From positions 1-64,000 of the forward strand of contig JAQGDQ010000929.1 in NCBI GenBank assembly GCA_030141605.1: a stretch of 64,000 nt of DNA, given 5' to 3'. A model generated the notes under the pieces. That model was not told where the DNA came from. It did no database searches and was given only the letters and a program-made list of their open reading frames with translations. The stretch's first letter is position 1. Each line of letters begins with the position of its first letter. Shown piece by piece: positions 214 through 33,623 of this stretch. The position numbers and the translations under genes were made by a program. Source of the stretch: Tubiluchus corallicola (taxonomy: Eukaryota; Animalia; Priapulida).

Positions 214-356
214 TTAGCTAACTATGTAGCCTTTGAATGTGCTGGCATAACTAGCTGTTGAAATGGAGGCACCAGTGTAGTATGTGACATAAACTTCATC
301 TCCTGTTTCGAGATGAAGAATAGCAGAGTTTGATATCGTTTGCCACTCGCCACCAC
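214..356 (-). CDS. Copy B exon 8: gC1q C-terminal part and stop
   Basis: GGGEWQTISNSAILHLETGDEVYVTYYTGASISTASYASTFKGYIVS*; ttgcag acceptor; TAA at 216-214. Confidence 0.88.
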
Positions 357-3300
357 CTGCAACAAAATAATATTAATTTTAAGTACAACTTGTGTAAGAG
401 CGAATACTAGTCACAAGGATGCATCAGTTTATCTTAATGTCAGGATTATTGTTAACATCACAAACTGAAAATTTATAAAAGTTAGATACCAAACTTGAAA
501 AATAGGAAATACGAAAAAGTTATATGCAGGATGGATTTGAACTAACACCCTTTTGCTTGCAAGGCAAACGCACAGCACCACGTTCCCTGGTGATCATGGT
601 TATCCAGTGTAGCTGACTAACTGAACTAGTACTTCTAAAGTGAAAGCACTCAACCTAGACAGACTGATTTTAAGTAATTTCATCAATTCTGATTCCGAAT
701 CTGAAAATTCCATGTAGTCTTTCTTTCCTGTCCTTGCACTGCTTGTTCTGCGACCTAAGATGTCCATTCCTAAACGATGTGACTTCCTACGACCATTGAC
801 ATTAAAAGCAAAACCGGACTGAATCTTAAACTGTAGGACAAAATAGTTTACTTTTTATAATATTGAAAGAAGGCTTACTATTTTTTCCAAAAATGACTTA
901 CGTGAAAGAATTATTACCACGCAGGTATTTTGTTATATGCTAGATATGTTAGTTTGTGACGAACTTCACACATTCGACAGCTCATGCGTGAGCACAGCAG
1001 TAAATTTAAATTTCGAATTTTTATCTTATAACTTGCCTAGTTTTAGTACAACACACTGAATATCTAACAGCAGCACTGTACTTCAATTTTCGCCTAGATC
1101 CCAGGAAATAAACAAAGCAAATGATATTTGATTGGTAGGTAGGCTGCCGGGTAGCCCAAAGTTCTCCTCTTGCCCAAAAATGGCTAAAATAAATTGGCCC
1201 TGCTAGGGTTAACTTGAAGATGAGAGAGCCAATTACAAATTTGCAAAATTCTCTGCCATCTCCTGCCTGGGGTGACCAATTTGAGAGAAATCAGTAGACA
1301 ATGTTACCGAAGCAATCAGTTTTACCTGCATTAACCTACCTGATATCTCAACCGATGACAACCTCGACGAATCATTTTGAATGTCATTTCTGTTGTGAAA
1401 CTGAAAAACGTACTTACCACCTTAAACGGCATTCCTCCTTTGATTTATCTTGGCAGCAGTTTTTACTGAGTGAAATTACTTCAGCTGTGTAATATCATTT
1501 AAACAACATTAATTTACCATGGCTTTGTCTGTTCTAACGAGCAAGAGTCATTACCTAGTAGCACAAATGATTTCAGTGATACTTCTTCGTAGCTCTAAGT
1601 TGTAAATATTTGTAAAATTTCATGATGCTGCTCACAAGCTTAATTTTCCAGACCTGCTTCTATTTGCAGATCTCGAAAGAGCAAAATTCGCGAAAAAACT
1701 TCATTTTTTCTACAGGTCGGTTTTTGTATTAAAATGATTTCTTGTTTTTTTGCATAATCGCAGTTTTTTAATAATTGTTAATTAGTAAGTTTATAAAGTT
1801 TACATGCCAGCATTTCATCACAGCATTGAGCATTAGCTGAAATAATTGAAATAATTGAAATAATGATAAACCCAGCATGATGATGATGTTTATTGTACAG
1901 GTCCTGTGCTCTGCTCACTGCCTTGTTCTTCTTTAGGCTGTATGGTTATTTTATCGATTAATTGATTTTTTACTTAAACACTTACCTGTTTTTGATTCCT
2001 TGTGTTCAGGGGTTACTGGTATTAGTTTGAGCACCAAACAGGACAAGCCTGATTCCGCCCTTCCTGATATTGTCTCCCAATTTGGGTGCCAATGTGAGGT
2101 AACCCCTCAAGGGTAGATTCCTTTTTTATGTTTTGTGTTTAGCCAGCTAGTTGTTCATTTCGATTACAAAAATTCTTTCTTACATTAACATTTTAATTTC
2201 ACAAAATCACTAAATTATGGGCGGGGCTTATGCCACTGAATCAATGCTAATTAATGTGTCCCAGGCATTTGGTTCACTAATCTCGTTTCAAGATGAGGTA
2301 CTCAAACCATGGCGTCTCGCCCACCGATAGCTCTGGTTCAAACCATCAAGGAGCTATTACAACTACCCTGGTGGCAAGTAGCGACGACAGAACAGTATTT
2401 ATAGCTGTTTTATGTGTTTCAATTTTTGATTAAGTATAACAATACTTCTTTTACAAATTATCATTACCAAACGAATTGAAATGAAGAAAACATAATTATG
2501 TTAATGAATAATTAAACTAGAATTGTAAATAAGGTGAGTGAGCTTTAAACAATCAATAAGTAATTGACAAACGGGATTGACAGTCACCAACTTGTGAATG
2601 AATGAACAAATGAACGAATGAAATTTAATGAATATGACATTATTGTAGAAAATTAGTTTATGTAAAAATTGTTTAGTTAAAACTCTTGAGTAATGAATTT
2701 GTTAGCATGGATGTAGACACGGTGCTTCGTTGCAAATAGTTTACTATACAAGCTTACCTGGATGATAGGGATATGCAACATTATACCCATTATGTAGAAG
2801 CTCGGCAACACCACCGTATGAACTTCTCTGCGCCCATAGATTCAGTTCAAATGAGTAAGTGCCTGATATAGGCGCTGTGAATTTTCCTGTAAAGTAAAAA
2901 AACCAAGTTAATGTTTACGTCTTTATCTAGTGTTTAAATTTAATTAAAAAAGTACCCAAAAGTTAATCCAAAGGTGCACATATGTGATCTTTGTTCTTTT
3001 GTTGTGTAACGTAACGTAAAATTTATTCATACTATGTAGTATGGTACATAAAATCTTAGCGCTAAAGAAAAAATGCATTTAAAAATCAAAATATTGAACT
3101 GCTGTCTATTTGCAACAGAGGCAGGGAGGATGATACTGCAGCCCTAACAGAGTTGCGTTGCAGGTTTATGCTTAAGCTAACAAATGTTTAAGCTGAAACA
3201 AAATTATTGATTCATATAATTGAATTAAATTGAATTATCGATTTATTATTAAGCATATTGCATACACAGCTTACCGAAAAAATGACCCTGTTGGCTCGTT

Positions 3301-6300: not shown

Positions 6301-9300
6301 TCGAGTTGCTCACATCAACCTTCAGCGACTCAAGCCAGTTATTCCGGATATTGCTAGATTTGTTCATAGCATGCATTGAAAGTGAAGCACAAAGGGGAAA
6401 GTAAAACACATTAGCCAACCCAAGTCAGAGGCTTAGAGACCCTTTGCATGATAAGGAAGTAAGACAACAATGTTTGTTGCACTAGAGAGAACTAAAAATG
6501 AATTTACGAAAATGAAAATATAAATTAAAGTAATTAGATTGTAAGCTAAGAAACGGGTTAACACAAAGTTTTGAGTTGTAGTTTTTAGTGGATACTTTCT
6601 GGAAGCATTACTGTGTAATTGTGGTACCCCCACGAGACCTTCAAAACAACAAGGCTAGTGACACTAAAACTCTTATAGATAACAAAGTGATGTGAAAATA
6701 AGAATAATAAAAATTATCTCAAGGAAGAATTACTCATTTGTATATTGATGATTTGTGAAAGATCAGTGCCCTGGCTTCATTTAAAATCGCAGGTAAATAT
6801 TAAAAAATTCTACATATTCAGTGGTGCTAAAAGTATCAGATTCTATAGAGAGAAACGTAAAACTTACTCTTCACAGAAATATCTATTATCTTTGACGTTA
6901 CTGAGCCAAGAGCATTTGTTGCCAAACACTCGTATTCTCCAGTATCCCGGGTTCTTACTTTATATCTTGTAAGTACATCACCTGTGTCAGGTAAAATATT
7001 GCGATCCAGTTTCCAGGTGACGGTTGGTGGTGGATTAGCATCAGCTTCACATTTCAGCTCCAATGTTGATAACATTACAATCTCTGAACTTCCAGTAATA
7101 ATGCTGAGATTTGCAGTGCGTGGTTTGTCTAATAAAAATGTACCATAAAATTTTACTCAGGGTATTAAACACAGAGCTTTACATAAAAACACGTATATAG
7201 AGTCTTATATGAAAAACAGGTACTTCTACTCAAAACGTTTCTTAACTGCACATTAAAAATTCTCTTACGTTTGAAGTGCAAAACCGTTACATTTTATTAT
7301 GCGATACCATAGATTAAAAAGCCATGCATATATAAATACCCATTTTAGAATACTCACCTAATGTCAACATAACAACTCATTTTATTAACTAATGCTTATG
7401 TCAGTAGAGTAAAGTCAGCTACATCAGTAGAGTTATATCAGTAAAGCCCACAGTCTTTGGTAACATAAATTATCCAAGTGCTCACAAATTATTATTTTAA
7501 CCACCCATATCATATGCTTTCCCAGGAATTAAGTAATTAAATCTCTTGTTTGTTGAGGGATTATATCTTTAAAAGTCAACAACCCAGGAAAGTATAACCA
7601 GGAGAATGAAATGGTTGAAACAGGTTTTCAACGAGTCACAGCAAATTCAAAGGTTTTATTTTTAATTTGTAGCTAATGTATAGGCGATTTAGAAAGTACT
7701 TTTATAGTACAAAACTATGTAGTGATAAATAGAGATATTAGTTCTAACATTTATGACTGTAAATCAATACGACGTATAACAAAGAACAATTGTTGTAAAT
7801 AAGTAATTGCACCACAATCTTTATTGCTTTTTCTTCTTTCTTTCTTTTATTCATCTCTACCTAGAAACTGCAGTGAAGATTAACAAGGTACTAATAATAT
7901 GCTTTTCGTGAACTTCAGTCTGATAACTTGAAAAGCTCCCACACTTTAAGAGCAAACAAAAATAAGTAGAATGTTTACAAGTTTGTGACATAGTGCCAAA
8001 GCCACTGTGTCCATTTAAAGGTTCGTGACAAACACATTGCTCTGTACCGAATTTTCCCAATGCTAGATTTTCGCACTGCTAAAAATTTCTAGAAGTAACT
8101 TTTCCCGGTACCAAAATTTCCTCATACCAAACTTACTGTAATGCCAAATTTTTCAATATTTTTCAGTTTGTTTACAGTTGCATGCACTTGCAGCAGGGGA
8201 GTTTGTGAGAATGTTCGTTACTCATCAAGTTTGGCTTGGCTAAACGCTGCTTGCGATCTGTTTGTTAATAAATCAATTGCATTGACAGAAGCCAAGTTTT
8301 GATCAAAAATTGAGTTGTTTTCACGTTTAGAAGTAATGACTGGGTAATTAGCATAATAACAGTTATTTACATACGGTATAACAAAAGTATGTTTCAGTGC
8401 CTTTTCCTAGCGAAAAGTGTCAAAAGAAACAGCGTCTGCGCATGCGAGTGTAAATAACACTGTCGAAGTATCTCTGCAGTACTTTCTATTATCGTAAACC
8501 CAAAATTATATCTGTGCTTATACATATCTCTCCCGCCTAGTTGTTTAAGTCAGCCTAATTGCTCAGTTAACCTGGGTTAGGACTCGCCATCTGTTACGTT
8601 TATTTAATACAGATTAGTTCAGCTGAGTTAGGAACAATTAAATACAACAAACAAATAAAAGGATCTCTATGTTAATGGTATTTTGCATATCTTTATATGT
8701 TAACAAGCTGCTGTCAGTTCTTAATCTAATTCATCACTGCAGGGAAGAACTGCTACTGACTCAATCTTGATGTCTATGGACTGGGGAAAGATCAGATTCT
8801 TCTTGGATAACAAGGCTATAATTCCTGTAATAAATGATGCAGCGACAGCGGTATCACAACCACAGTTTAATGTGATTTGTTCATGCATCCCTTCACAGCA
8901 GAAAGCAGCTAAAATGAGCATGGTGAATGAAACCACCAGCTGGTTTCTAACACTGGTGTTCGTCACCCATCCAGTAACAAACATGCACAAGGCCAAATTT
9001 ATACAAGTCAAATATAAGACATTTTAGAAAAGTTTCTAGATTACTTACAAAGAACATTTAGAGAAATATCCGGAAAAGAAACTTTCAGGGTACGATCTGT
9101 TAGGCAACACCTGATAATCTTGTTATTATCACCCTCCATGCCAGGTGAAAATACATGTCTCAAGGTACTAGTTGAAGTCACAAGTTGTGTTGTACTATTA
9201 GTCCAATTGTCTTGTTCAGCAGAAGAAGTTATGTCTTCTTCACCTAAAAGACACAAAACAGGCAGAATGATAACATTAACGTTGGAAGCGGATCTGGATC

Positions 9301-12300: not shown

Positions 12301-14360
12301 CGCTGAAGTACCCTGGCTTCCAGTGAAATTCATAACTCAGTAATATATTTTAGTTTTTACTTTTTAGGCACTAAATGAAATGTCACTAGATATGGTTACT
12401 GACTATAAGCCAACTCGTTTTCTCAGCGGATCTGGTACCCACTCACATGTAGTGCCAAGACGCACAACCAAAATTGGATTAACAGCATCATCCTACAAAC
12501 TGCAACGAATGTGAAATTCGTTGCCAATTCACATTTGATCTGAAACGTCTTTTACTTATTTCAGATATCATATTATTCTACAAATTTTTCGGCATCAATT
12601 TTGACATTTTCACTTTTACTTGTAACAGTTTGCCAATTTCAAGTTTCTTAGCTATAATATTTTACATGAATCTGTCACGTTTTATTAATAATTGCCAATT
12701 TTTGTTCATTGTGCAACATAAAGTTGTAGCAGGCTTTACATATTAAGAAGGTTAAAAACTTATTACAGCAGTTCCATATTTCTGTGCAATTAAGTTACAG
12801 CCACATCATTGAATACATTTCATAAAATATGTTTATATGTATTATTGACTTACCTATTACAGTCAATTTTGCTTCATATGAATCTTCCAGAATGTCAGGA
12901 TATTTGAAAAATTGACACACGTAGATTCCATCGTCTTCTGGCACTCCCACGGCATCAATTTTAATACTATGCAGGCCATTTATTACTGGATTCTCATACA
13001 TGTAAGATATTCGACCAGAGATATTAAGAAATTTCCCGTCTTTAAGCCATGTCACGTTATAGCTAAGAACAGGGACGAATGCCATATTAATTCTACATTC
13101 AAGTTCTGCTGTTGCACCTTGTAAAACTCCCAGGCTGGATGGCTGCATGTCAAAATATTCGCATCTGGCATCTGTAACTATAAATAGCAACAACACATGT
13201 TTTTGGCCGACTTTTTGTGAACTAGCGTATCATTTCTATTAAGTAAAAACAACAAAGACAAAAGCTTGATCCCTGATGTGTACCTACACTAGCTAGAACA
13301 GCCAACAATAGTACAAATATTCAGTGTTCAAAGCGACAGCCATCAAATAATTGTCACCCAAACTAAAAATTTTGGGTAACACAATTTTATCTTAGAACAC
13401 CAAACACCTTCCATAAATTGAGATACGATATGACAGCTAGTGTTGGGTTTTAAACTTGAGTATTCCAGCTATTAAAAAAATCTGTTTAAGGTGTTTTAAG
13501 CAAATAAAAATGTCAAAACTTGGTGGTAGATACGCCTTTCATAAAATTAGGAAAAACTATGGCAATCCAATGGTTAGTCAGAAATAGTTATTATTTAGGC
13601 ACACAACATAATAAAAAGCCTTTATATCTCTATAAGTAAACAATTTAAAATCTCGAATAATAATTTATCTGATTCTTTGCCAGTAAATGTCGGCGTTAAA
13701 CAGGGATGTGTATAGGGTCCAGTTTTGTTTAATTTGTTATTAAATGACATCACAAAGGTGCGACCCACCCATATTAAATCTCAATTACTTGCAGTTACTA
13801 TTGTGCGCCGACAAAATTGTTGTCTTAACTACTTCTCAGGAAGGCTTACAGATGGGTTAAATCAGTACCGTGACGACAAGTTGCTAAATAATTACATTGT
13901 ACAAAAGTATTTGTTTTCAACAAAGGAGCTTACAGATTATCAAAGTAAAACTTTACTTAGGCCATTATTTGATTACATGTTTGAATGACGTATCCATGAA
14001 ACATATATGCAAGAATCATATGACCAGTCTTTTTCACAAACACATCACTTTTCATTTCTCAAAAAACCATATGTGTTGATCTGAACATTACTTTTAAAAA
14101 CTATCGTACTTTAAAAGAAAACTGAGAAGTATTTAAATACCCCTATTTATTACGTATGTAAAAAGCAAGTATTACATATAATCCTTAAACAGCTAGAGTC
14201 AGCAACAGCTCTACTGTTATTCCATGCAATATCTTAATCTACAAATTCTAATGAGATTAATTATAAAATAAAAATTAGTTTTTCAAAGAAGATAACAGAA
14301 TATTCCCTTACCATTTACTGCAAATATCAGTAGAATGGCTACTTTCGCAGTGAGTGACAT
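214..14360 (-). CDS. Secreted Ig(V)-Ig(C2)-Ig(I)-gC1q protein, copy B (8 coding exons, ~451 aa)
   Basis: Exons 14360-14312, 13177(or 13171)-12854, 11144-11001, 9243-9049, 7128-6868, 5780-5670, 2886-2758 and 356-214. All introns are GT..AG and phase 1, all internal exons are multiples of 3, and the frame is open from ATG (MSLTAKVAILLIFAVN) to TAA. Ig Cys/Trp/DxGxYxC motifs and C1q motifs (FAFSV, TGKFTAP..GTYSF, L.LETGDEVYV, STFKGY) are present. Confidence 0.88.
525..590 (-). mobile_element. Degenerate tRNA-like (SINE head) relic; paralog at ~20088-20153
   Basis: The minus strand has an anticodon-arm-like tttgccttgcaagcaaa and a B-box-like gttcaaatcc, but no intact cloverleaf. Confidence 0.3.
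2758..2886 (-). CDS. Copy B exon 7: gC1q middle part
   Basis: GKFTAPISGTYSFELNLWAQRSSYGGVAELLHNGYNVAYPYHP; tttacag / gtaagc; 129 nt. Confidence 0.88.
5040..5142. repeat. Alternating purine-pyrimidine (CA/GT/GC) tract; shorter paralog at ~23830-23900
   Basis: cacacacacatgtgcgcgtgcgtgtgcacgtgcgcacgcatgcaca. Confidence 0.7.
5670..5780 (-). CDS. Copy B exon 6: gC1q N-terminal part
   Basis: TFAFSVYYPESHYGNTGVIIKFTESQINHGNVYSSST; catttcag / gtatgt; 111 nt; not in the ORF track. Confidence 0.87.
6868..7128 (-). CDS. Copy B exon 5: I-set Ig domain
   Basis: YKP...LKCEADANPPPTVTWK...DTGEYECLATNALGS; ttattag / gtaagt; 261 nt. Confidence 0.92.
9049..9243 (-). CDS. Copy B exon 4: C-half of C2 Ig domain
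   Basis: GEEDIT...TSTSTLRH...DNNKIIRCC...SLNVL; ttttag / gtaagt; 195 nt. Confidence 0.88.
9317..10035. repeat. 37-bp minisatellite (~19 copies) in intron 3 of copy B
   Basis: Unit tctgacagggctagaaaattcagctaaacattctaag; period 37 (9317, 9354...). Confidence 0.95.
11001..11144 (-). CDS. Copy B exon 3: N-half of CD80-like C2 Ig domain
   Basis: VEPQEVKM...FKCIIAEANPTPEIKWYLG; ttaacag / gtaagt; 144 nt. Confidence 0.88.
11331..11623. mobile_element. MITE/foldback-like element with long imperfect inverted arms
   Basis: atgatactagaattgccaagccacaaaaaatcattacagaatcaaaagagc (11331-) is the imperfect reverse complement of gctcttttgaccttgtagtggttttttgtgtcttggtaattttagagtcat (-11623). Confidence 0.65.
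12854..13177 (-). CDS. Copy B exon 2: V-set Ig domain
   Basis: GATAELEC...VTWLKDG...HSIKI..V..EDDGIYVC...AKLTV; acceptor tttatag (or the in-frame ttacag), donor gtaagt. Confidence 0.9.
14312..14360 (-). CDS. Copy B exon 1: signal peptide MSLTAKVAILLIFAVN
   Basis: ATG at 14360, hydrophobic core, G|gtaagg phase-1 donor. An upstream acceptor (tattttcag) implies a 5' UTR intron. Confidence 0.75.
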
Positions 14361-14682
14361 CTTACTTCTGGATCTGACGCCTGCTGAAAACTGAAAATAG
14401 TAATTTCAATTTATTTACTTCACTTCAATGGCACATAGTAGTAGCATACATTTTACATACACGTACATCATGATTCAATTTTAAGCTGTTTTAGTCTCAA
14501 AGTAAACAAATCACCTGTTTTTGCATCTTTATTTTAACTAACAAATAATAAACAGATAGCTAACATTAATTAATCAGCTAACATTTGCATAGAAATGAAC
14601 TGAAGTAGGTTTAGAACGTGGAGATAGATCTGATTCTTCTTGAACTGCTGGGTGGACTTTACTTTGCGTTCTTTTATATTGT

Positions 14683-15073: not shown

Positions 15074-15353
15074 AGCAAATTATGCAAACACTACTTAACA
15101 GATTTCCACGAAACTTTGTGTCTTTTCGGCATTTTTTTTGCAAAACTTAACCGAACACCACATACAAAAAATATTCATGAAGCACCTCATGGAGGTCTCA
15201 GAGGGCGTGTTTAGTACTTTTTTATATTTCCACCAGGACAAACAACTACGAATTTGTTCCAGATACCATTTTGAGAAATTCTTGCTTGGAAAACTGAGAA
15301 ATACTGTCTATAACCTTGGCTTATTAATGTGTATAAACTGGATTGATGTATAA

Positions 15354-19530: not shown

Positions 19531-19581
19531 TACACATATTATACAATCCACGTATTATTTAGGAAAACTACAAACAAAGTA

Positions 19582-19587
19582 TTTATT
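19582..19587 (-). terminator. Candidate polyadenylation signal (AATAAA) of copy A
   Basis: tttatt on the plus strand, about 180 nt downstream of the stop codon and just before the 59-bp satellite. Confidence 0.45.
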
Positions 19588-19768
19588 CCCATGAACATTT
19601 TATGAACATATCTAAAAATTAGCATAAATAATTAGCATAGAATTTTCGGCACATGCTACGTCAAAAGGTGATTTTCGGTGCCTGTGGCCCTTCTGACCCA
19701 AACCATCACAATGTACGTTGTTGTTGGCTAAATGTTGTTTGTGATTAAGTCCAAGTTGGTAAAAAACC

Positions 19769-19917
19769 CTAGCCAATCATATATCCATTGAAATTGCTGG
19801 AAGAAGTTCTGTAAATGGTGGCAACGTCATCGTCATTATAATATGTGACATAAACTTCGTCACCCATTTCTAGACGAAGAATAACAGAGTTTGATATCGT
19901 ATGCGTGCAATCATCAC
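19769..19917 (-). CDS. Copy A exon 8: gC1q C-terminal part and stop
   Basis: GDDCTHTISNSVILRLEMGDEVYVTYYNDDDVATIYRTSSSNFNGYMIG*; TAG at 19771-19769. Confidence 0.88.
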
Positions 19918-22900: not shown

Positions 22901-25900
22901 ATGTCTCCCAGGCATTTGGTTCACTGATCTCGTTTCAGGATGAGGTACTCAAACCATGGCGTCTTGCCCACCGATAGCTCTGGTTCAAACCATCCAGGAG
23001 CTATTAAAACTACCCTGGTGGCAAGTATCGACAACAGAACAGTATTTATAGCTATTTTATGTGATTCACTTATGCATTTTTGATTAAGAATATCAGTACT
23101 TCTTTTACAAATTATTATTACCAGACGAATTAAAATGAAGAAAACATAATTATATGACATTATTGTTGAAAATTAGTTTAAGTAAAAAATTGTTTAGTTA
23201 AAGCTCTTAAGTAATGAATGTGTTAGCATGGATGTAGAGGCGGTGCCTCATTGCAAATAGTTTACTGAACAAGCTTACCTGGATGACGGAGATATGTAAC
23301 AAGATTGCCATCATGCCTAAGACGGGCAACATCATCTGACGAGCTACTTTTCGCCCGTAAATTCAGTTCAAATGAGTAAGTACCTATAACAGGTGCAGTA
23401 AATTTTCCTGTGAAGCAAAAAACCAAATTAATGTTTATGTCTTTATCTAACGTTTCTAAATTTAATAAAAAGCATCCAAAAGTTAATCCAAAAGTTAGTC
23501 CAAAGGTGCACACATGTGATCTTTGTTTTTTTATTGTGTAACGTAATGTAAAATTTATTCATACTACGTACTATGGTACATAAAATTTTAGCGCTGAAGA
23601 AAAAAATGCATTTAGAAATCAAAATATTGAACTGCTGTCAATATCATTTCTGTTGATATCATTTCTGTTTGTGATACAATTTAAAAGCTTTAACATTTGG
23701 AAAATTAAAATTGTTGTTTTATAAAAATTCTAAGATTCAAACATGCTGAACTAAGATCAATCATGCTGTCTATATTTAAAACATAGTAAGTCAATGGACT
23801 GGGGTTCCATGATTTACAGTTAGGGCTCCCCATGCATGCACGCATCAAAACACACACATACACACACACACACACACACAGTGTGCGGGCGTGTAAGCAT
23901 GTATGTTCTGTTAATTTACAGCATTCTCAAATCAAAACCCTATTGAAGCTCTTAGTAGGCTGAAACTCGTCTAGAACGATAATAAAAATTAAAAAAATGC
24001 TAGAGAAATCTTATCATGCCAAAAATACAAGCAGTTGTTTTGTATTCTGTCTGCTTTCATTAAGTATAACGTTATTTTACAATTATATGAAAGTAACAAT
24101 GTTCTAGGGAGGATCAGTGCACCCACATCTGAGACGCTGTTTCCTTGTAACTTTGTTATTGTTCCAATAAAACCTTTTTTGAGACAGAAAATAGGGAGTA
24201 ATGATAATAAATACAACAGATTATCAGAATTCCACACAGTTATAGCAGGGAATGTGAGGTGAGTTTTTCCTGTGGGGTTTTCCAATAAATCCTGCTAGGA
24301 CGTTAATGTTGCGTGGAATGAAATGTCAGCCAGACAATTTCAATAATGTTTAGATGTTATGATGATAGAAGCAAATATTGTATTATTTTCTTGTTGGGAC
24401 GCATTGTTAACTTATAGCAAATCACATACCCGTGGACGACGAATATACGTTTCCATGATTTACGTTTGTCTTGGTAAATTTTATAATTTCTCCTGTGCTT
24501 CCAGTCTCGTTTTGTGGCGTCGTAACAGAGAAAGCAAAAGCTGAAATGAAAATATTACTTGTCATCATTATCATCACGAGCTGGTCAATATTATTATGTA
24601 ATCACAGTCAAAGATGTTTCCACAATTATCACCATCCTTTCCATAATCCAGGTTTTTCTACGAACAGTTTCACTCTGTCGAGTTGCTCACATCAACCCTC
24701 AGTGACTCATGCCTGCAATTCCGGATATTGCTAGATTTGTTCATAACATGCATTGAAAGTGAAGCACAAAGGGGAAAGTAAAACATATTAGCCAACCCAA
24801 TTCAGAGACTTAGAGACCCTTTGCATGATAAGGAAGTAAGACAGCAAAAGCTTGTTGCACTAGAGAGAATTAAAAATGGATTTGCGAAAATGAAAACATA
24901 AATTATAGTAATCAGATTGTAAGCTAAGAAAAGGGTTAACACAAACTTTTGAGTTGTAGTTTTTTAGTGGATACTTTCTGAAGCATTACTGAATAATCGA
25001 GGTACCCCCACGAGACCTTCAAAACAACAAGACTAGTGACACTAAAACTCTTATAGATAACAAACTGATGTGAAAATAAGAATAATAAAAATTATCTCAA
25101 GGAAGAATTACTCATTTGGATATTGATGATTTGTGAAAGATCAGTGCACTGGCTTCATTTAAAATCAAAGGTAAATATTAAAAAATTCTACATATTCAGT
25201 GATGATAAAAGTATCAGATTCTATATAGAGAAACATAAAACTTACTCTTCACTTCTACATCTGTTATGCTTGACGTGACTGAGCCAAGAGCGTTTGTTGC
25301 CACACACTGGTATTCTCCATCATCCCGAGACTTTACAATGGATCTTTTAAGAACATCACCTGTGTCAGGTAAAATATTGCGATCCAGTTTCCAGGTGAAG
25401 GTTGGTGGTGGATTAGCATCAGCTTCACATTTCAGCTCCAATGTTGATAACATTACAATCTCTGAACTTCCAGTAATAATGCTCAGATTTGCAGTGCGTG
25501 GTTTGTCTAATAAAAATGTACCATAAAATTTTACTCAGGATATTAAACACAGAGCTTTACATAAAAACACGTATATAGAGTCTTATATGAAAAACAGGTA
25601 CTTCTACTCAAACGTTTTTTAACTGCACATTAAAAACTCTCCTACGTTTGAAGTGCAAAACCAATACATTTTATTATGCGATACCATATATTAAAAAGCC
25701 ATGCATATATAAATACCCATTTCAGAATACTCACCTAATGTCAACATAACAACTCATTTTATTAACTAATGTTTGTCAGTAGAGTAAAGTCAGCTACATC
25801 AGTAGAGTTATATCAGTAAAGTCTACAGTCTTTGCTAACTTCATTTATCCAAGTGCTCACAAATTATTATTTTAACCACCCATATCATAAGCTTAGCCAG

Positions 25901-28900
25901 GAATGAAGTTATTAAGTCTCTTGTTTGTTGAGGGATTATATCTTTAAAAGTCAACAACCCAGGCTAGTATAACCAGGCGAGTGAAATGGTTGAAACAGTT
26001 TTTCCCCGAGTCACAGCAAATTCAAACGTTTTATGTTTAATTTGTAGCTAATGTATAGATTTAGAGAGTACTTTTATAGAACAAAACTGTGTAGTGATAA
26101 ATAGAGAAATTAGTTCTGACAATTCTGACTGTAACTCAATATCACGTCTAACAAATAACAAATGTTGTAAATAAGTAATTGCACCACCATCTTCTTTCTT
26201 CTTTGTTTTTCCATTCTTTGCTTTTATTTATATCTAGCTAGGAACTACAATGAAGATTGACAAAATACTAATAATGCTTTTCGTGAACCTTTATACACAA
26301 AACTCCTACATTTTAAGAGCAAATATAAAATAACTAGAACTTGTTTAAGTTTGCAACATGGTGCAGAAAAGCATTGTGTCTATTTTACGTGCTCGTAACA
26401 ACTACATTTTCCCCATAAGCAATTTTCCCAGTTCTAAAATTTCGCTGTACCAAAAATTTCTAACAGCAAATTTTCTTCACGCCAAAAAAATTATTTGCAT
26501 CACATTTATCAAAAACCAAACTCACTAAAATACCACATTTTTCTACTTTTTTTAGTTTGTTTAAATGCTGTATGAAAGTTTGTGAAAATGTGTGTTACGT
26601 CATCTGGGCTGATCTCTGCAGCACTTTCTATTATTGTAAACCCAAAATGAAATCTGAGCTTATACATATCTCCCCCCATTGCTCCTTCACACGCAAGTCA
26701 TTTAAGTCATCCTGGTTGTTCAGAATAACCTAGGTTTTGGCTCGCCACTTGTTACACTAATTTAATATAGATTTGTTAAGCTTAATTAAGAACAATTAAG
26801 TACAATATATAAATAAAAGCTCCTCCTTATTAATGGTGCTTGTATATCGTTATAAATCTATGTGAACAACATATTGCCCTGTCTTTATCTAATTCAAGCA
26901 CTGCAGTAAAGAAATGCTACTGATCCAGATGTCTATGAACTGTGAAAAGACAGAATTCTTCTTCATTAATAAGGCTATAATTCTTATAAGAAACTAGGGT
27001 TAGCGTTAAGGAAGAACTGCTACTGATCCAGATGTCTATGGACTGTGAAAAGACAGAATTCTTCTTCATTAATAAGGCAATAATTCTTATAAGAAACTAG
27101 GGTTAGGGTTAAGAAAGAACTGCTACTTATCCTGATGTCTATGGACTGTGACAAGACAAAATTCTTCTTCATTAATAAGGCTATAATTCTTATAAGAAAC
27201 TAGGGTTAGGGTTAAGAAAGAACTGCTACTTATCCAGATGTCTATGGACTGTGACAAGACAGAATTCTTCTTCATTAATAAGGCTATAATTCTTATAAGA
27301 AACTAGGCAGCGTGAGAGGTATCACAACCACATCTTGATGAGAATTGTTCATACATCCCTTCACAGCAGAAAGCAGCTAGAATGAGCATAGCGAATGAAA
27401 CCACTAAAACCAGCTGGTTTCTAACACTGGTGCTTCATCACCCATCCAGCAGCAAACATGCACAAGGCCAAATTTGTACACGTCAAATATAAAACATTTT
27501 ATAAAAGTTTCTAGATTACTTACAAAGAACATTTAGAGAAATATCCGGAATAGAAACATTCAGGGTACGATCTGTTAGGTAACATCTGATGATCTTTCCA
27601 TTGTCACCCTCCGTGCCAGGTGAAAATACATGTCTCAACGTGCTAGTTGAGGTCACAAGTTGTGTTGTGCTATTAGTCAAGTTTTCTTGGCCAGCAGAAG
27701 ACGTTATGTCTTTTTTACCTAATTGACGTAAAAGAAGCAAAATAATAACATTAATGTTGGCAGTAGATTATTAGTCAATTTGACTTCTGACAGGACTAGA
27801 AAAATTCAGCTAAACATTTTAGGTCTGACTGGCTAGAAAATTCAGCGAATTATTCTAATTCTGACAGGGTTAGAAAATTCAGCGAATTATTCTAATTCTG
27901 ACAGGGTTAGAAAATTCAGCGAATTATTCTAATTCTGACAGGGCTCAAAAAGTTAGATAAACATTCTAAGTCTGACAGGGCTAGAAAATTCAGCTAATTA
28001 TTCTAATTATGACAGGGTTAGAAAATTCAGCGAATTATTCTAATTCTGACAGGGCTCAAAAAGTTAGATAAACATTCTAAGTCTGACAGGGCTAGAAAAT
28101 TCAGTTAATTATTCTAATTCTGACAAGACTCAAAAAGTTAGATAAACATTTTAAGTTTAACAGAAAATTCAATTAAACATTGACAACTTGTAATATCATC
28201 GTGTATCATCATGTATCATCGTGTATTGAGCCTCTCGCCTTATGTCTCCCATATGTTATAAATGACAAAAATGCACACACATTTGACACACTGCTTTGAG
28301 TCTCTTTCTTGACAGCCAATATGAAATCTTCCTTACTACTGGTGGTTATTTAAACTATAGTCTTATAAGGCTGTGAATTCCCTTGACAGCATCACTACTA
28401 AGATTTCTGTAAACTAGGGTTTCGATGGAACCGCAAAAAAATTATATGATTAAAGACAAAATTTCATAAGCTTCCTAAGTGTCTCTAATGCAATAAATCT
28501 TATTTCATTCTCGCTTGCAACAATCACTAAAATTTCAGGTTACCAGGTGTGCGTAAGAAAAGACATTGCAGGTGACAGATTGTAAGTGAATTTTGTTGAC
28601 TGTTTCAGCTACAGTTAATTTAACATTAATGTTGATAGTTATTTTGCTGTAGTTGATACTAATGCAAAGAATAGGCAGAATTGTTCTACCTTCAGAACCA
28701 TCATAAACGATATGCCTACATGAGTGCTCTAAGAATGGTAATAAGACGTCAGTGCTTAGGTGTGCATTATAAGAGCATGCTAAAGATCAAACAGAAAATG
28801 CCTCTGCAGATAAGAAAGTGAATTGATAATTGTTAAGTAACTGATGAGACAATGCCAGTCTCACTATGCACTGAACGACAACTTTAATTTTTTAAATCTT

Positions 28901-31900
28901 TTGTTTCTTTTTGACAGCTTTTTACATTATGAGCCTTTTCTCAGTTTCATAGTCTTCATATGCAGTTGCTGTAGGTCAAAGGTTAAGTGTACCACTGCTG
29001 TACAACTGTCATATCTACAGCAGTCAGGTGATGTGTGGGTAATGCAAATCCGTCTGTCGTGTCAGTTTAGTACCTTTAGTTATTTCACCTGGCAAGATCT
29101 TGCTTGAGAACAAGAAAAATGAATTAGGTAAGGTTCTAGTTAGCTGTTAAAACGTTTACTACAGTATTAACATAACATGGACTGCGAGATGTTGTCAAGT
29201 GTACACAAATGCGTTGTCTGGTATACTCATCCTTTGACGTTTTCATAATCATCATCAATCATTGAAACTGTGAAAAGGCTTATTAATTTCAAACAATGAC
29301 GAGTATTTGTATTTGTGTGTGTGGGGGCGGAGGGTGTGATGCATACATGCGTGCATCTGAGTATTTTCAAAATTTGTTTATGAAATATGCAAGTTTTAAT
29401 TGCTAAACGAAACCAAATTGATAACTAGGACAGTCTCAATCATTTTAAAAACCAAATAAATTCAGAGCAATTAGTTATTCTCTGCCTCCAGTGCACGTGA
29501 TAAAAATAATGACTCCGAAATTGTTTTGATTATCATAATTGCAAAAAGTTTGGCGGCTAAAAATGGCTGATAAGTTTCTGTCTTCTTGCTTTTCCCCTCC
29601 TAATATATTTTTGCCTTAAAAAAATCCTAGCACAAGTATTCAAAAACCATCATCTCAACTGTAATGTACATTTGTATCAGAGAAATCAAAGAAAGTTTGT
29701 GTTTGCAATTCTATTAACTCATTTCAAATAATTGTAGTAAACTGATCCTGTACAGTATAAAATACAACAACCAGCTAACGAAAAATAAAGTCACAATTGA
29801 CTAGAGGGAATTCCTGACATGTTTCTGTGAATTTTAGTAATTTTTGCCTTTTATAAACAAGGACAAAGGTTTCTGATTTGACTAGTTTGTGAGAATACCA
29901 GAAATATAACAGTAAATAAGTGATATAGGACAATGCTGAACATAATTCACTTACCCAAGTACCACTTAATTTCAGGAGTTGGATTGACCTCTGCAATGAC
30001 ACATTTGAATATTTCATCTGGACTGCTGGCCCTGACAGTGACCTGATTCGTCAATATTTCTTCGTCATTTAACAGCATCTTTACTTCCTTTGGTTTTACT
30101 GTTAAACAAGAAAAATAAAATATAAATATAAGATTATAATAAATCAAAATAAATTAATTGAAGGTGGGTTAATTAACGTCAAATTGTAATTTGTTCAATG
30201 TGAACGACCATTTTAGCATCAACCCAATTTTTAATGCACAAAAATTATGAATTTCACTTTTTGATAAGATATGCATGATACTATCATTACCAAAATACTA
30301 GACAACAAACTGACTGATTTCTTTTGATTAATATTTACCAATGAAAATGGCATTTGTTCCAAACAATTATTTGCATTGAATAAACAACATGTTGGAACAG
30401 AAGCTATTTAATGTAAATTTGACATTAAGTATATGCATACATAGCTGCATTTTATGAATGCAGAAATATGTACATTGTAAAATCAAAAATCTGAATAACA
30501 TTAGCATCTAACCAATTCTGTGTTTCTTAGAGCCCAATGTGAATTAGTGACTTGAGGAAAGATTTATGATTTTAGTTTTAAAATTTATCAAGTATTTCAT
30601 ATAAAGACTGCAAGCTGATCTTCAAAATGAGGCAGGGATTAACCATAAATGTGAATACTATTAAAAATATTTCTAGCTAAAATTTAGCACTTAATTTCTT
30701 ACATTTATTTTGTGCATTTTATGTTAACCAAATTAGTCATAATTTACCATCTTGATTCTTGATAATTTATCAAAAATGCAAACCTGATTAATAATGTTAG
30801 GAATCTTCATATGCCCAATGTGAATGTCCACTATTGACATAAAGAGTAATCGTCATGACCTTTCATACATTCTACAAAATATGTCTACTATCTACAATAT
30901 TATCTTACCAGTTACAGTTAGTTTTGCTGGATCAGAATTTCGCACAAGGTCAGGTAATTTCCATAACTGGCACATGTAGGTTCCATCATCTAAGACACTG
31001 ACATCATTAATTCGAATACTGTGTAATCCTTGTAACTGTGGGTTGTAGCTGTACTTGTAAGATATTCTTCCAGTAATAGGAAGAACTTTCTCATCTTTGA
31101 ACCAGGTAACTTTGTAACCCTGCACAGGTACCAGAGTCATGTTGATTCTGCATTCAAATTCTGCTGTTAAACCTTGCAATACTTGCGTACTGGAAGGCTG
31201 CATAGTGAAATATTCACTTGCACCTGTAAATAACGGGAACAATAATATTAGTACTAGCAAAGGCCACGAAAAAGATTTTGCGTATAAATACACGTGTAAT
31301 CAATAATACGCAAACGTCCTACCAAGTCCTCATTTATAACACAAAGCCCGTAACATCCTGCCTACTTACCTGTAGCAGCGTTTACTCGTGCCTACTGTAT
31401 GTTTAACTAACGCAAAGCCAGCAGGCAGCTTTTTGCTGAATTAAAGCTATAAGCAAAAATGGATGACGTCAGAAAAATGGAATGCGGTCAGCACAGTTTT
31501 CTAAGCGAAAATTGTCGAAATTTGCGGAAAATTGAACATCTAATTAACTCGTTGATACTCCTCTCGGTGGACCTGCCCTAAAATATAGCCCACATCATCG
31601 TGTAGCCCTGTCCTTCCTCTCTGTAAAGAGCCCCATATCTCCTTCCGAGAGTCCCACCGGGCGACGCTAGAACGTTTTTCCCGCATGCTGTTTGGTCAAA
31701 ATTTCGAAAAAATCGCGAGTTGGGTCCGGGAAAACGCCCGTTGCGGGGCGCCCTGGCCCTCTCGGGAATTATAAATATGCCTACTACACCCACCGCTGAA
31801 CTGGCTAGCTATCCATACCCAGTACCCCCCTCGGCCCGTTCCCGTTCTCTAGATCTCAGCCGTATAACTTTTGCAATTTTTTGCAAAAAACGGCCGTTCC

Positions 31901-33623
31901 GCCCGGTGGGCCCGATTCGAAAAATAAACCATCAATGGCATGACACTAGATCGAGACCTTTCGTTTGATATATAGATCGCCGCAAATGGTGGCTTCGTCC
32001 GGGCTGTAGCCTCGAATCTTATATATATATATATAAATATACCAAGAATATTAATATAAAAGTATAGATTCAGTGCTAAATTCAGAAGTCATCCTAAAAT
32101 TATGCAGGCATAGAAATTGTTTTTTGTTAATTATCCCTAGACTCAAATTAATGGATTGCAACGCCACAGATAGTTATCTCGGAAAGAAATTGAAAACATG
32201 AAAATTTTGAAAAAATGTTTTGAGAGGAGTAAGTGCTTCCCTCTTAACGCAGCGATGTAATTAGTGGATAAAAGGTTGGCAATACAGCATAATTATAAAT
32301 ATTCACCGTCATCTTACAAAAGCCAACGTCTTCTGAAACATTGACGTCATCAATTCTAATACTGTAAAAACTGTCTCTGTTTGGTTGTTGTCTTTCGATT
32401 TTTGAACCTGATGATCGGCAGCTACTTCTTCGATGTTGTAATACCTGACATTGGCCTACGTCACATATACATATATATATATATGGCAAATTTATAGTTT
32501 ACCTGTTGTAGATCTGTTACTTGCAGACGATGACATTTCTAATGATGGTGAGAATACTGAAGCTGATTCCTTAGGAACTTCTTTTGACACTTGGTAAAAG
32601 GTGCTGATGAGACAGTAGCTGATGTTTATTTATCCGAGTGGCTCAGGTCAAGATGTTCACTTGTTGCTGCTAAAGAAAAACAAGTAAAAATTACAAGAAA
32701 AAAGTTACATGGGGTACAACTAGAACTTTTTGACAGCGTTCTGTACCACTGCTGCAATTTACAAAAAGATTGCAGTTATGTGACGTTATGTATCGAAAAG
32801 TGATATTATTTGAATTTCTGCTATGCGCTAATAACTTGATATTATCTTTTTACATTTTATCAGTATGTTACTCTAGTCACAATCATTTTTAATTCATGTT
32901 TCAGTGTTTTGTTTGGAGCGGGACTACAATCATCACTTAGTCTTTACACCAAGCACTAGTCTAACATACCTTGGTCTACCTAATCTAGGCACAAGACTCA
33001 TTCTGCTGCAAGTGAAAATTCGGAAGATTTAAATTAAAGAAAATTTGCAGAATGATGCAAAATTTAAAACACATTTGCATCGGTGCCAAATTAGCAGTGC
33101 ACACAAAGTTTCTGCCATCATTGTTGCTGATGATATTGTTGTTGATGATTATGATGATAATGTTAATGATAATTATAATGTTAATGATTATTTACATTTA
33201 TAACTAATGAAATAAAAAATTTCATAGCAAAACTTAAAAAATAAAAAAAATCATTTTAGAATATGGAGTAAAGGATGTGGAAAAAAGAAACTCCTAGTCA
33301 ATGGATTAAAAAATAATAGTAGCCAAAAAATACTTTCTTCAAATTTTTGGCAATGCACCTTTAACTGTTTTTATTAATTAGAAAATAATTTGAAAAATAA
33401 CGACAATAATTCTTCTGTGAAAATTCATAAACAGTAAACAATAAAAAATTAGTTTCAGTTATCATTCAACTATTATTCTGTATATTGTTCTAATCTATAA
33501 GTAGTCATGAGACAAAAAAGGAAGTTTTTAAAGAAACCAATAAAAATCTTTTTTTAACTTACCGTTTATTGCAAACACCATTTGAATGGCTTTTTCGTTG
33601 TGAATTACGTGTTTGCTACACAT
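19769..33623 (-). CDS. Secreted Ig(V)-Ig(C2)-Ig(I)-gC1q protein, copy A (~454-464 aa; 5' exon uncertain)
   Basis: Exons 33623-33563 (tentative), 31223(or 31253)-30909, 30098-29955, 27718-27524, 25506-25246, 24540-24430, 23407-23279 and 19917-19769. Exon 3-7 lengths (144/195/261/111/129) and phases match copy B, and there are no stops from exon 2 to TAG. Confidence 0.8.
23279..23407 (-). CDS. Copy A exon 7: gC1q middle part
   Basis: GKFTAPVIGTYSFELNLRAKSSSSDDVARLRHDGNLVTYLRHP; 129 nt. Confidence 0.88.
24430..24540 (-). CDS. Copy A exon 6: gC1q N-terminal part
   Basis: TFAFSVTTPQNETGSTGEIIKFTKTNVNHGNVYSSST; 111 nt; catttcag / gtatgt. Confidence 0.87.
25246..25506 (-). CDS. Copy A exon 5: I-set Ig domain
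   Basis: LKCEADANPPPTFTWK...DDGEYQCVATNALGS; 261 nt. Confidence 0.92.
26908..27307. repeat. 103-bp tandem repeat (~4 copies) with TAGGGTTAGGG junctions, copy A intron 4
   Basis: Period 103 (26921, 27024, 27127, 27230); single-copy homolog in copy B at ~8745-8835. Confidence 0.9.
27524..27718 (-). CDS. Copy A exon 4: C-half of C2 Ig domain
   Basis: GKKDIT...TSTSTLRH...DNGKIIRCY...SLNVL; 195 nt. Confidence 0.88.
27787..28160. repeat. 37-bp minisatellite (~10 copies), paralogous array in copy A intron 3
   Basis: Same unit family at the equivalent position. Confidence 0.93.
29955..30098 (-). CDS. Copy A exon 3: N-half of C2 Ig domain
   Basis: VKPKEVKM...FKCVIAEVNPTPEIKWYLG; 144 nt; canonical sites. 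Confidence 0.88.
30909..31223 (-). CDS. Copy A exon 2: V-set Ig domain
   Basis: GLTAEFEC...VTWFKD...HSIRINDV..LDDGTYMC...AKLTV; tttacag / gtaaga; alternative in-frame acceptor 30 nt upstream (exon start 31253). Confidence 0.9.
31254..32068 (-). mobile_element. Non-autonomous Helitron-like element (~815 bp)
   Basis: The minus strand starts A|TCTATACT...(TA)n and ends ...CTTTGCTAG|T, so it sits between A and T with no TSD. An imperfect hairpin (acgcaaaa-tc-tttttcgt) lies 12 nt before the end, and the body is GC/CpG-rich, unlike its flanks. Confidence 0.7.
32280..32400 (-). pseudogene. Decayed V-set Ig exon fragment
   Basis: SFYSIRIDDVNVSED, then frameshifted DDGEYL*; the DNA aligns to the copy A V exon (acagtatt.gaatt.atga.gtca.tgt). 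Confidence 0.7.
32503..32669 (-). pseudogene. Candidate decayed Ser/Thr-rich exon
   Basis: Strong acceptor (tttttctttag) and phase-1 donor (ACA G|gtaaac). The 3' frame reads QVSKEVPKESASVFSPSLEMSSSASNRSTT; the 5' part has a stop and a frameshift. Confidence 0.35.
33563..33623 (-). CDS. Copy A candidate exon 1 (leader MCSKHVIHNEKAIQMVFAIN)
   Basis: The 3' end aligns with copy B exon 1 (AIQMVFAIN-G vs AILLIFAVN-G), with the same phase-1 gtaagt donor. Hydrophobicity is weakened; there is a second ATG at 33581. Confidence 0.5.

What the first reader, a model, noticed from the sequence alone, without database searches (positions are those of the whole stretch)
214..33623. Tandem family of secreted IgV-IgC2-IgI-gC1q proteins: a candidate invertebrate soluble immune-recognition system
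Seen: eight phase-1 exons splice into one open frame in each paralog. The I-set exon ends 'VK A|' and joins the C1q exon 'CC TTT GCT TTC' (T-FAFSV), with no TM, collagen or coiled-coil exon evident between them. Most C1q exons are absent from the ORF track, so the fusion is easy to miss. Established: V-C2-I is a nectin/CADM-like ectodomain layout; gC1q is a trimerizing ligand-binding module; Ig-plus-recognition-domain chimeras are invertebrate immune families (FREPs, CREPs, GREPs, VCBPs; Ig+C1q 'QREPs' are, as I recall, reported from gastropods). Inference: a trimeric, two-ended molecule with three V tips and a C1q head, acting as an opsonin or bridging factor and built by phase-1 exon shuffling. 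This three-Ig, linker-less form may be undescribed.
Basis: partly seen in the sequence, partly recalled or inferred. Interest (0 to 1): 0.92.

Follow-up and report, generated by a model that had tools for sequence, protein, structure and literature searches.

The report
Tandem three-Ig C1q-head genes, QREP-like
Two neighbouring genes in an invertebrate genome are predicted to splice into proteins with three antibody-like domains on a C1q head, a layout confirmed in one intron-free relative and close to the known snail "QREP" immune proteins; they likely form secreted three-armed recognition molecules, but no function has been tested.

Summary
Two minus-strand paralogs each have eight exons with phase-1 GT-AG introns. 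These give open frames of 449 and 454 aa, laid out as leader, V, C2 (two exons), I-set, gC1q (three exons).

An unnamed 512-aa protein, P0125, on a 2,122-nt contig matches them along all domains (50% and 48%). It carries Ig and C1q in one intron-free frame, so the fusion is real in this family. P0125 has a 62-aa, likely coiled-coil, insert exactly at intron 5. The window genes show no trace of it, so the family has forms with and without a linker.

Between the paralogs, the C2/I scaffold and introns 4-7 are nearly homogenised. The V exon and two of the three C1q exons stay far more diverged, even at silent sites.

Ig plus C1q is not new: gastropod QREPs carry one or several Ig domains, and a 54-member molluscan cluster of 533 aa is the nearest look-alike.

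Still open: transcripts of these two genes, secretion of gene B (degenerate leader), host phylum and function. Verdict: a new variant of a known kind, likely a trimeric recognition protein.

The parts
14312..14360 (-). Gene A exon 1: ATG and signal-peptide-like leader (16 codons)
   Evidence: best 8-residue hydropathy 3.4, GTAAGG donor, phase 1
12854..13171 (-). Gene A exon 2: N-terminal V-type Ig domain
   Evidence: I-set 32.1 bits, V-set 20.5 bits; 48% to P0125
11001..11144 (-). Gene A exon 3: first half of C2-set domain
   Evidence: C2-set_2 positions 2-36
9049..9243 (-). Gene A exon 4: second half of C2-set domain
   Evidence: C2-set_2 positions 44-86 (weak); P0125 whole C2 48.5 bits
6868..7128 (-). 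Gene A exon 5: I-set/Ig_3 domain
   Evidence: 43.9 bits
5670..5780 (-). Gene A exon 6: gC1q first third
   Evidence: no Pfam hit alone; aligns to P0125 383-420
2758..2886 (-). Gene A exon 7: gC1q middle third
   Evidence: C1q 38-76, weak
214..356 (-). Gene A exon 8: gC1q last third and stop
   Evidence: C1q 28.6 bits; PDB C1QL/adiponectin matches
33563..33623 (-). Gene B exon 1: degenerate leader, homologous to A's; A's ATG aligns to ACG with a 1-nt gap, so an upstream ATG is used
   Evidence: alignment score 91.5 vs maximum 60 in 200 shuffles; best 8-residue hydropathy 2.25
32261..32579 (-). Decayed V-exon-like remnant inside gene B intron 1
   Evidence: score 90.5 vs maximum 73.5 in 200 shuffles; no Pfam hit
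30909..31223 (-). Gene B exon 2: V-type Ig domain
   Evidence: V-set 31.8, I-set 38.5 bits
29955..30098 (-). Gene B exon 3: C2 first half
   Evidence: 81% aa identity to A exon 3
27524..27718 (-). Gene B exon 4: C2 second half
   Evidence: 85% aa identity to A exon 4
25246..25506 (-). Gene B exon 5: I-set domain; first 48 codons almost identical to A
24430..24540 (-). Gene B exon 6: gC1q first third
   Evidence: C1q 1-36, E 0.009
23279..23407 (-). Gene B exon 7: gC1q middle third
   Evidence: 63% aa identity to A exon 7; aligns to P0125
19769..19917 (-). Gene B exon 8: gC1q last third and stop; an AATAAA follows in the 3' flank
6483..6545 (-). Weak candidate hydrophobic 21-codon phase-1 cassette in A intron 5 (probably chance)
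   Evidence: TAG acceptor, non-consensus GTGCAA donor
24861..24923 (-). Homologous weak cassette candidate in B intron 5
   Evidence: 5 non-synonymous and 1 synonymous difference to A, by my count from the printed sequences

Best explanation
These are two tandem paralogs with intact phase-1 exon sets that are predicted to splice into leader-V-C2-I-gC1q proteins, which likely act as secreted (gene A; uncertain for B), trimeric, QREP-like pattern-recognition molecules. Mechanism, step by step. (1) Shown: the exon structure, the open frames, and a relative with the same domains in one intron-free frame. (2) Predicted: the gC1q heads form a homotrimer, so three V-C2-I arms project from the base and the head's apex faces the other way. 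(3) Inferred: the C1q apex binds foreign surface patterns such as glycans, while the V tips bind a second partner (a hemocyte receptor, a second epitope or each other), giving agglutination or opsonisation by avidity. (4) Inferred: gene conversion keeps the C2/I scaffold and introns alike, while selection keeps different V and C1q versions, so each copy would have its own specificity. (5) Inferred: the neck is modular, with a coiled-coil exon gained or lost at intron 5.
For: Splice model: 14 of 14 introns phase-1 GT-AG, and dN below dS in all eight exons. Fusion: P0125 was found with the C1q exon-8 profile (E 6.9e-7; 1 of 16 hits, and the only one of the 16 with both eukaryotic Ig domains and C1q). 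It has a hydrophobic N-terminus, V-set, C2-set_2, I-set and C1q, sits on a 2,122-nt Logan contig, and is 45-56% identical to A and B in each of the four domains. Its C1q part folds like C1QL1/C1QL3/cerebellin (Foldseek E 1e-7 to 1e-6). Trimer: three copies of P0125 383-512 scored 0.94 against a best control of 0.00, runs agreeing in 100% of contacts, pLDDT 92 or more. That mark was reached by 21 of 30 solved pairs and 0 of 23 single chains (microbes), and by 17 of 29 eukaryotic pairs (animals 7 of 16; 1 of 7 without an older solved relative) and 0 of 30 single chains. gC1q trimers are solved, so the pass may be from memory. Divergence pattern: A vs B aa identity is V 62%, C2 83%, I 85%, C1q 60%. 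Introns 5-7 differ at 6.5-7.6% of aligned sites, whereas four-fold sites in C1q exons 6+7 differ at 11 of 31, against 120 of 1703 in introns 5+6 (p 7e-6). Second codon positions differ at 31 of 127 in C1q against 17 of 200 in C2+I (p 1e-4). Literature context: QREPs are Ig+C1q proteins, upregulated on trematode infection in Littorina (PMC8878817, passages). Bivalve C1qDC genes expand by tandem duplication with episodic positive selection and act as opsonins (PMC6835236, passages).
Against: No functional data of any kind. Classical dN/dS is below 1 in the V and C1q exons (0.262/1.344 and 0.281/0.625), so positive selection is not shown; the excess divergence is relative to introns only, and C1q exon 8 is not different from its flanks (p 0.62). 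Differences between A and B are not depleted at the predicted trimer interface (identical 24 of 46 at the interface vs 51 of 80 elsewhere, p 0.26). The trimer was modelled on P0125's C1q domain (45-48% identical), not on A or B, and without the Ig arms; whether three I-set domains fit with about 2 residues of linker was not tested. The closest solved C1q domains are the synaptic organisers C1QL and cerebellin, and the Ig part alone resembles Fasciclin-3/ALCAM/CADM-type adhesion proteins. Gene B's leader looks degenerate. P0125 is a single unnamed sequence of unknown host. One review suggests many invertebrate secreted gC1q proteins work as monomers (PMC10672478 section 2).
Confidence: 0.55

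Rival explanations
1. The same secreted trimer works as an adhesion or tissue-organising bridge rather than in immunity. The V-C2-I arms would bind cell-surface Ig adhesion proteins and the C1q head a receptor on another cell or the matrix, as cerebellins and C1QL do at synapses.
For: Best structural matches of the head are C1QL1/C1QL3 and cerebellin. The Ig part alone is nearest to Fasciclin-3-like, ALCAM and CADM2-like clusters. PDB sequence hits of the V exon include SYG-1, Kirrel3 and CADM2, all weak. Nemertean C1q-1 is expressed in the nervous system (PMC9835746, passages).
Against: Synaptic organisers are typically conserved and low-copy (recalled). Here the paralogs are tandem, and the two presumed binding ends are the most diverged parts. 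No close relative of P0125 was found among 7,865 candidates.
Confidence: 0.22
2. The genes encode a polymorphic self/non-self or gamete-recognition factor, in which the V tip and the C1q head act as matched specificity determinants that must stay different between copies or alleles.
For: Mosaic divergence with a homogenised scaffold. V exon flanks are unalignable between paralogs. Allorecognition proteins with hypervariable V domains exist in colonial invertebrates (recalled, no call).
Against: No population data. Known allorecognition Ig proteins are mostly membrane-bound (recalled). The host phylum is unknown.
Confidence: 0.1
3. The main products are not the soluble fusion. Either the hydrophobic 63-nt cassette in intron 5 is spliced in, giving a membrane-anchored V-C2-I receptor, or Ig and C1q exons go to separate mRNAs.
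For: The cassette is the only YAG..GT-bounded, stop-free phase-1 segment of 45 nt or more in intron 5 of either gene. It is in frame in both paralogs. The in-frame open stretch that starts at this acceptor has a best 19-residue hydropathy of 2.1-2.2.
Against: Its donor GTGCAA is unlike all 14 true donors. It differs between paralogs at 6 of 63 bases (5 non-synonymous), like the intron average. A similar hydrophobic segment arose in 15-19% of 500 block shuffles of intron 5. There is no AATAAA in intron 5 and no ATG-plus-phase-1-donor leader for a separate C1q gene. P0125 has no transmembrane segment between Ig and C1q.
Confidence: 0.07
4. Gene B is a decaying or non-secreted copy (not exclusive of the best explanation, which would then apply to A only).
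For: A's start codon aligns to ACG in B with a 1-nt gap, the h-region carries a Gln, and a decayed V remnant sits in intron 1.
Against: All seven downstream exons of B keep an open frame and canonical splice sites, and dN is below dS in every exon comparison.
Confidence: 0.3

Closest known systems
QREPs (C1q-related proteins; VIgL subfamily; Gorbushin 2019, PMID 30682446, not held; described in PMC10672478, PMC8878817, PMC6835236)
   Same: N-terminal Ig domain(s) plus C-terminal gC1q in a secreted invertebrate protein. Caenogastropod QREPs have 'one or several' Ig domains and are expanded. The Atlas top hit for P0125 is a 533-aa 'C1q/Immunoglobulin' cluster of 54 members, commonest Mollusca (0.94, 213 of 256 features).
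   Different: QREPs are reported only from Heterobranchia and Caenogastropoda, and this host is not placed. The passages I saw cite one or two Ig domains for Littorina. The Ig module here is V-C2-I and by itself resembles adhesion proteins rather than the molluscan cluster. A and B lack any neck. No QREP sequence could be compared directly.
FREPs and other VIgLs (CREP, GREP, HREP) of gastropods (PMC7588048, passages)
   Same: Ig domains plus a recognition domain. A variable interceding region, with coiled coils in some members and not others (FREP4 multimerises, FREP2 does not), parallels P0125 versus A/B. Gene conversion contributes to diversity.
   Different: The C-terminal domain is fibrinogen or a lectin, not C1q. 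FREP IgSF1 and IgSF2 are both V-type, whereas here only domain 1 is V-type.
Vertebrate C1QL1-3 and cerebellins
   Same: Closest solved gC1q folds (26-37% identity in Foldseek alignments); trimeric heads; secreted.
   Different: They have no Ig domains, and their described function is synaptic organisation.
Nectin/CADM/Fasciclin-3/ALCAM-type Ig adhesion proteins
   Same: V-C2-(C2/I) ectodomain layout.
   Different: They are membrane-anchored; here gC1q takes the place of the transmembrane and cytoplasmic part.
Ig + TNF-domain proteins (Atlas ranks 2-3, 743 and 1031 aa, commonest Chordata on one record)
   Same: Ig stalk on a trimeric C1q/TNF-superfamily head.
   Different: TNF rather than C1q, C1-set domains, longer; scores 0.77-0.81 make this a lead only.

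Membership tests
C1q-domain-containing (C1qDC) proteins | C-terminal globular C1q domain (PF00386, jelly-roll fold) | tested here: met
   Exons 6-8 cover the Pfam profile in order; P0125 C1q 70.5 bits; fold matches C1QL
C1q-domain-containing (C1qDC) proteins | gC1q trimer formation | tested here: inconclusive
   Model of P0125 head: 0.94 vs best control 0.00, possibly from memory of solved trimers; A and B themselves not modelled
QREP (VIgL subfamily) | N-terminal Ig-like domain(s) joined to C-terminal C1q in one protein | tested here: met
   Splice models and intron-free P0125
QREP (VIgL subfamily) | Secreted (signal peptide, no transmembrane segment) | tested here: inconclusive
   A and P0125 have hydrophobic leaders; A and B have no internal hydrophobic 19-mer above 1.1; B leader degenerate; SignalP not available
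QREP (VIgL subfamily) | Occurrence in Heterobranchia or Caenogastropoda | tested here: inconclusive
   Host not placed. The window's COLGALT has no named mollusc among its best 120 of 273 hits (111 vertebrates, 1 scorpion, 8 unnamed; best 44% over the full length), a weak hint against a gastropod
QREP (VIgL subfamily) | Ig domains homologous to those of gastropod QREPs/VIgLs | tested here: inconclusive
   Full-length P0125 is nearest to a molluscan C1q/Ig cluster, but its Ig part alone did not list that cluster among 10 rows, and no near-length homolog passed E 0.001. No QREP sequence was in hand
QREP (VIgL subfamily) | Immune-tissue expression, induction by parasites, ligand binding | not testable with these tools
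   No expression or binding data
FREP | C-terminal fibrinogen domain | tested here: not met
   C-terminal domain is C1q
C1q-like type I (collagen-tailed) | Gly-X-Y collagen stalk before C1q | tested here: not met
   No (GXY)4 stretch in phase-1 candidates of intron 5; no collagen hit in P0125
Nectin/CADM-type adhesion receptors | Transmembrane segment after the third Ig domain | tested here: not met
   None in the splice models or P0125; only a weak intronic cassette candidate

The most novel reading that the evidence does not exclude
An independent origin of the QREP design outside gastropods. A nectin/CADM-type V-C2-I ectodomain was captured onto a gC1q head by phase-1 exon shuffling, with an optional coiled-coil exon, and diversifies at both ends while gene conversion holds the stalk constant: a soluble, trivalent, two-ended 'antibody-like' recognition family in a little-studied invertebrate lineage.
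Probability: 0.35. Interest if true: 0.68.

Novelty: new variant of a known kind. Interest (0 to 1): 0.47.

Why it matters
Invertebrate Ig-plus-lectin chimeras (FREPs, QREPs) are the main examples of diversified soluble recognition outside vertebrates, and reviews treat QREPs as gastropod-only. If this host is not a gastropod, the same design either arose twice or is older than reported. The intact gene structure also shows how such chimeras are built and tuned: all-phase-1 exons, an optional neck, a homogenised stalk and retained divergent ends. It gives two natural paralogs whose binding can be compared directly. If the host is a gastropod, this is a new three-Ig QREP with a documented gene structure, useful but ordinary.

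Tried and rejected
- Expression: no RNA holder listed for window 1-9300. The laid contigs of X1 and X2 gave no joint at an exon junction among the rows shown. The tool marks such blanks as no evidence. Exons 1-3 could not be examined against reads, so the leader-V-C2 junctions remain unexamined in runs.
- No whole genome is held, so paralogs could not be counted genome-wide.
- Word-based homolog search with exon 5 found nothing (0 of 54 candidates). With P0125 it found only itself.
- Single-sequence AlphaFold of the B V exon failed (pLDDT 34). The P0125 model was confident only for C1q, so V versus I-set for domain 1 rests on Pfam and length.
- Alignment A3 was visibly wrong and was not used.
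- A remnant of P0125's 62-aa insert in intron 5 was sought by tblastn and by local alignment against 300 shuffles (P 0.96 for A, 0.69 for B): none found.
- A private leader for a separate C1q gene in intron 5: none.
- Enrichment of conservation at the predicted trimer interface: not found.
- The X1 contig that matches both ends of exon 6 but not its middle was not counted as a third paralog, because gene B would give the same pattern. Depths were not used as copy numbers.
- The primary QREP paper (PMID 30682446), the VIgL paper (PMC4255472) and a recalled amphioxus paper id were not held, so Ig types and counts in QREPs are known here only from reviews. Their supplements may bear on novelty.
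- Literature searches listed no paper on a V-C2-I-C1q protein by title or abstract start; only the papers cited were opened. The library lacks most subscription journals. A search on intron homogenisation found 0 papers.
- Earlier scan notes: nothing on this genome or on P0125.

Full report
1. What is in the window. The sequence is animal-like (about 35% GC, minisatellites, a broken LINE, a 5S copy). Self-comparison shows that 180-11,200 and 19,700-30,100 are duplicates. On the minus strand each copy holds eight exons. Joining them by coordinates in a script gives stop-free frames of 449 aa (gene A, 14360-214) and 454 aa (gene B, 33623-19769), with 14 of 14 introns GT..AG and phase 1. Exons 2-5 and 7 are open only in the frame that this phase requires, in both genes. 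Pfam on the separate exons gives V-set/I-set, C2-set_2 in two halves, Ig_3/I-set, and C1q in three consecutive thirds; exons 6 and 7 alone are weak, and A exon 6 and B exon 7 have no hit. dN is below dS in all eight exon comparisons.

2. Is the fusion real? A HMMER search of 1.84 billion representatives with the two exon-8 peptides gave 16 hits. One of the 16, P0125, is a 512-aa protein with a hydrophobic N-terminus, V-set, C2-set_2, I-set and C1q. It is unnamed, a singleton, and lies on a 2,122-nt Logan contig, so its 1.5-kb frame has no room for the kilobase introns of the window genes. It is a transcript or a retrocopy of one (inference). It matches every coding exon from V to the end, with 48-49% identity in V, 49-53% in C2, 55-56% in I and 45-48% in C1q. 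This is independent support that Ig and C1q exons of this family form one mRNA. It is not a transcript of A or B themselves. Run X2 (RNA is a guess; same species label as the DNA holder X1) has two short contigs on exon 5 that differ from A at 12 of 67 and 15 of 101 letters, where A and B differ at only 3 of 101. This suggests further, more distant paralogs.

3. The neck. P0125 carries 62 extra residues exactly at the exon 5/6 junction. AlphaFold places a helix at 341-373 with low confidence (about 50), and residues 366-371 fit the RhxxhE coiled-coil trimer motif (meaning recalled; one search is a search listing only). No trace of this insert is in intron 5 of A or B. So A and B are linker-less, but the family is not. 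This parallels FREPs, where some members have a coiled-coil interceding region and multimerise and others do not (PMC7588048, passages).

4. A possible membrane exon. Intron 5 holds one YAG..GT-bounded phase-1 segment of 45 nt or more, a hydrophobic 21-codon stretch in frame in both genes. Against it: the donor is GTGCAA; the paralogs differ at 6 of 63 bases, 5 of them non-synonymous; a comparable hydrophobic segment arises in 15-19% of block shuffles; P0125 lacks it. A looser count (any AG) finds two hydrophobic stretches per intron 5, against 6 in 55.8 kb of other non-coding DNA, and two or more in 1-2% of shuffles; the second has a GAG acceptor. I rate this probably chance but worth a primer pair.

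5. Secretion. A has a short hydrophobic leader (8-residue hydropathy 3.4). B's exon 1 is homologous to it (91.5 vs at most 60 in 200 shuffles), but A's ATG aligns to ACG with a 1-nt gap, the core carries a Gln (2.25), and a decayed V-like piece lies between it and B's V exon. B may be poorly secreted or decaying at its 5' end.

6. How the copies diverge. Protein identity is 62% in V, 83% in C2, 85% in I and 60% in C1q. Introns 4-7 differ at only 6.5-11.4% of aligned sites, while introns 1-2 do not align apart from 23 nt. C1q exons 6 and 7 are less alike than their 150-nt flanks (p 6e-4 and 2e-5); exon 8 is not (p 0.62). Even four-fold silent sites in exons 6+7 differ at 11 of 31, against 120 of 1703 intron sites (p 7e-6). 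The first 48 codons of exon 5 have no second-position change, while the last 39 have 8. The simplest reading is that these exons are older than the introns around them: gene conversion has homogenised the stalk and introns but not the V and C1q exons, or those exons were imported from other paralogs. That is what selection for different specificities at both ends would leave. It is an inference from two sequences, dN/dS itself is below 1, and the changes are not depleted at the predicted trimer interface.

7. How it likely works. The C1q part of P0125 folds like C1QL1/3 and cerebellin. Three copies model as a trimer (0.94 vs best control 0.00, contacts agreeing 100%, pLDDT 92 or more). The mark was reached by 21 of 30 solved microbial pairs and 0 of 23 single chains, and by 17 of 29 eukaryotic pairs and 0 of 30 single chains; solved gC1q trimers exist, so this may be memory. 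A review states that solved C1q domains are trimers, yet suggests many invertebrate secreted gC1q act as monomers (PMC10672478, section 2 part 1). The most likely product is a secreted trimer with three V-tipped arms on one side and a C1q apex on the other, bridging a foreign surface to a host cell or agglutinating it (confidence 0.55). An adhesion or neural bridging role (0.22) and self/non-self or gamete recognition (0.10) remain open.

8. Comparison with what is known. Ig+C1q proteins are described as QREPs. They are reported only from Heterobranchia (one Ig) and Caenogastropoda (expanded, one or several Ig) (PMC10672478, passages), and are induced by trematode infection in Littorina (PMC8878817); Biomphalaria QREPs appear among differentially expressed genes (PMC13619432). 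I could not see the primary paper. The ESM Atlas ranks a 533-aa, 54-member, mainly molluscan C1q/Ig cluster first for P0125 (0.94), so multi-Ig C1q proteins of this size are already in databases. With the Ig part alone, the ten rows are generic V/C2/I proteins such as Fasciclin-3-like, ALCAM and CADM2-like, and that cluster is not shown. The host is unplaced: the neighbouring COLGALT has 111 vertebrates, 1 scorpion and 8 unnamed sequences among its best 120 of 273 hits, none a named mollusc, at about 39-44%. That leans weakly against a gastropod, but an intronless copy may simply have evolved fast. It therefore 'works like' a QREP in design, and membership by descent is undecided.

9. Verdict. 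A real, well-formed gene pair with an independently supported Ig-C1q fusion. It is a new variant (V-C2-I stalk, optional neck, possibly a new lineage) of a known kind, not a new system. Interest 0.47; up to about 0.68 if an independent origin outside gastropods is shown (probability about 0.35).

Noticed in passing
window 60168-61988 (-): Intronless 607-codon ORF for a procollagen galactosyltransferase (COLGALT, GT25); best database matches only about 44%, nearly all vertebrate. Possibly a retrocopy or a poorly sampled lineage.
   Followed up: partly
window 48700-51480 (+): Three Gly-rich exons resembling the C-terminal part of an hnRNP A/B protein (label recalled, no Pfam hit), followed by what look like several 3' non-coding exons. 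My motif scan found no RRM exons in the window.
   Followed up: partly
window 43368-46972 (+): Broken LINE: coiled-coil ORF1-like frame, PHD finger, endonuclease and RVT_1 pieces.
   Followed up: partly
window 57053-57171 (+): Single 5S rRNA copy with several mismatched stem pairs (Rfam 80.9 bits), next to a 147-bp tandem repeat; may be a pseudogene or 5S-derived element.
   Followed up: no
window 35019-35186 (-): Decayed BTB/POZ-like fragment (E 0.014) just upstream of gene B.
   Followed up: no
window 17331-19531, 9316-10082, 49010-50180, 56241-56978, 40319-40786: Several long minisatellites with units of about 59, 37, 32, 147 and 83 bp; the 59-bp array separates gene B's 3' end from gene A.
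   Followed up: no
window 880-1100 and the copy near 20450-20650: High-copy interspersed repeat inside intron 7, with depth in the thousands in X1 and present in X2.
   Followed up: no
window exons 7-8; P0125 464-471: All three proteins keep a His-Pro-Gly at the exon 7/8 junction. They have Gln or His where the other C1q proteins in alignment A2 mostly have an acidic residue before the Ser-Asn-Ser motif. That residue is a calcium ligand in C1QL/adiponectin (recalled), so the canonical calcium site may be altered.
   Followed up: no
ESM Atlas ranks 2-3 for P0125: Clusters of Ig (C1/C2-set) plus TNF-domain proteins of 743 and 1031 aa, labelled Chordata on one record: a possible parallel Ig-on-trimer-head design.
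   Followed up: no
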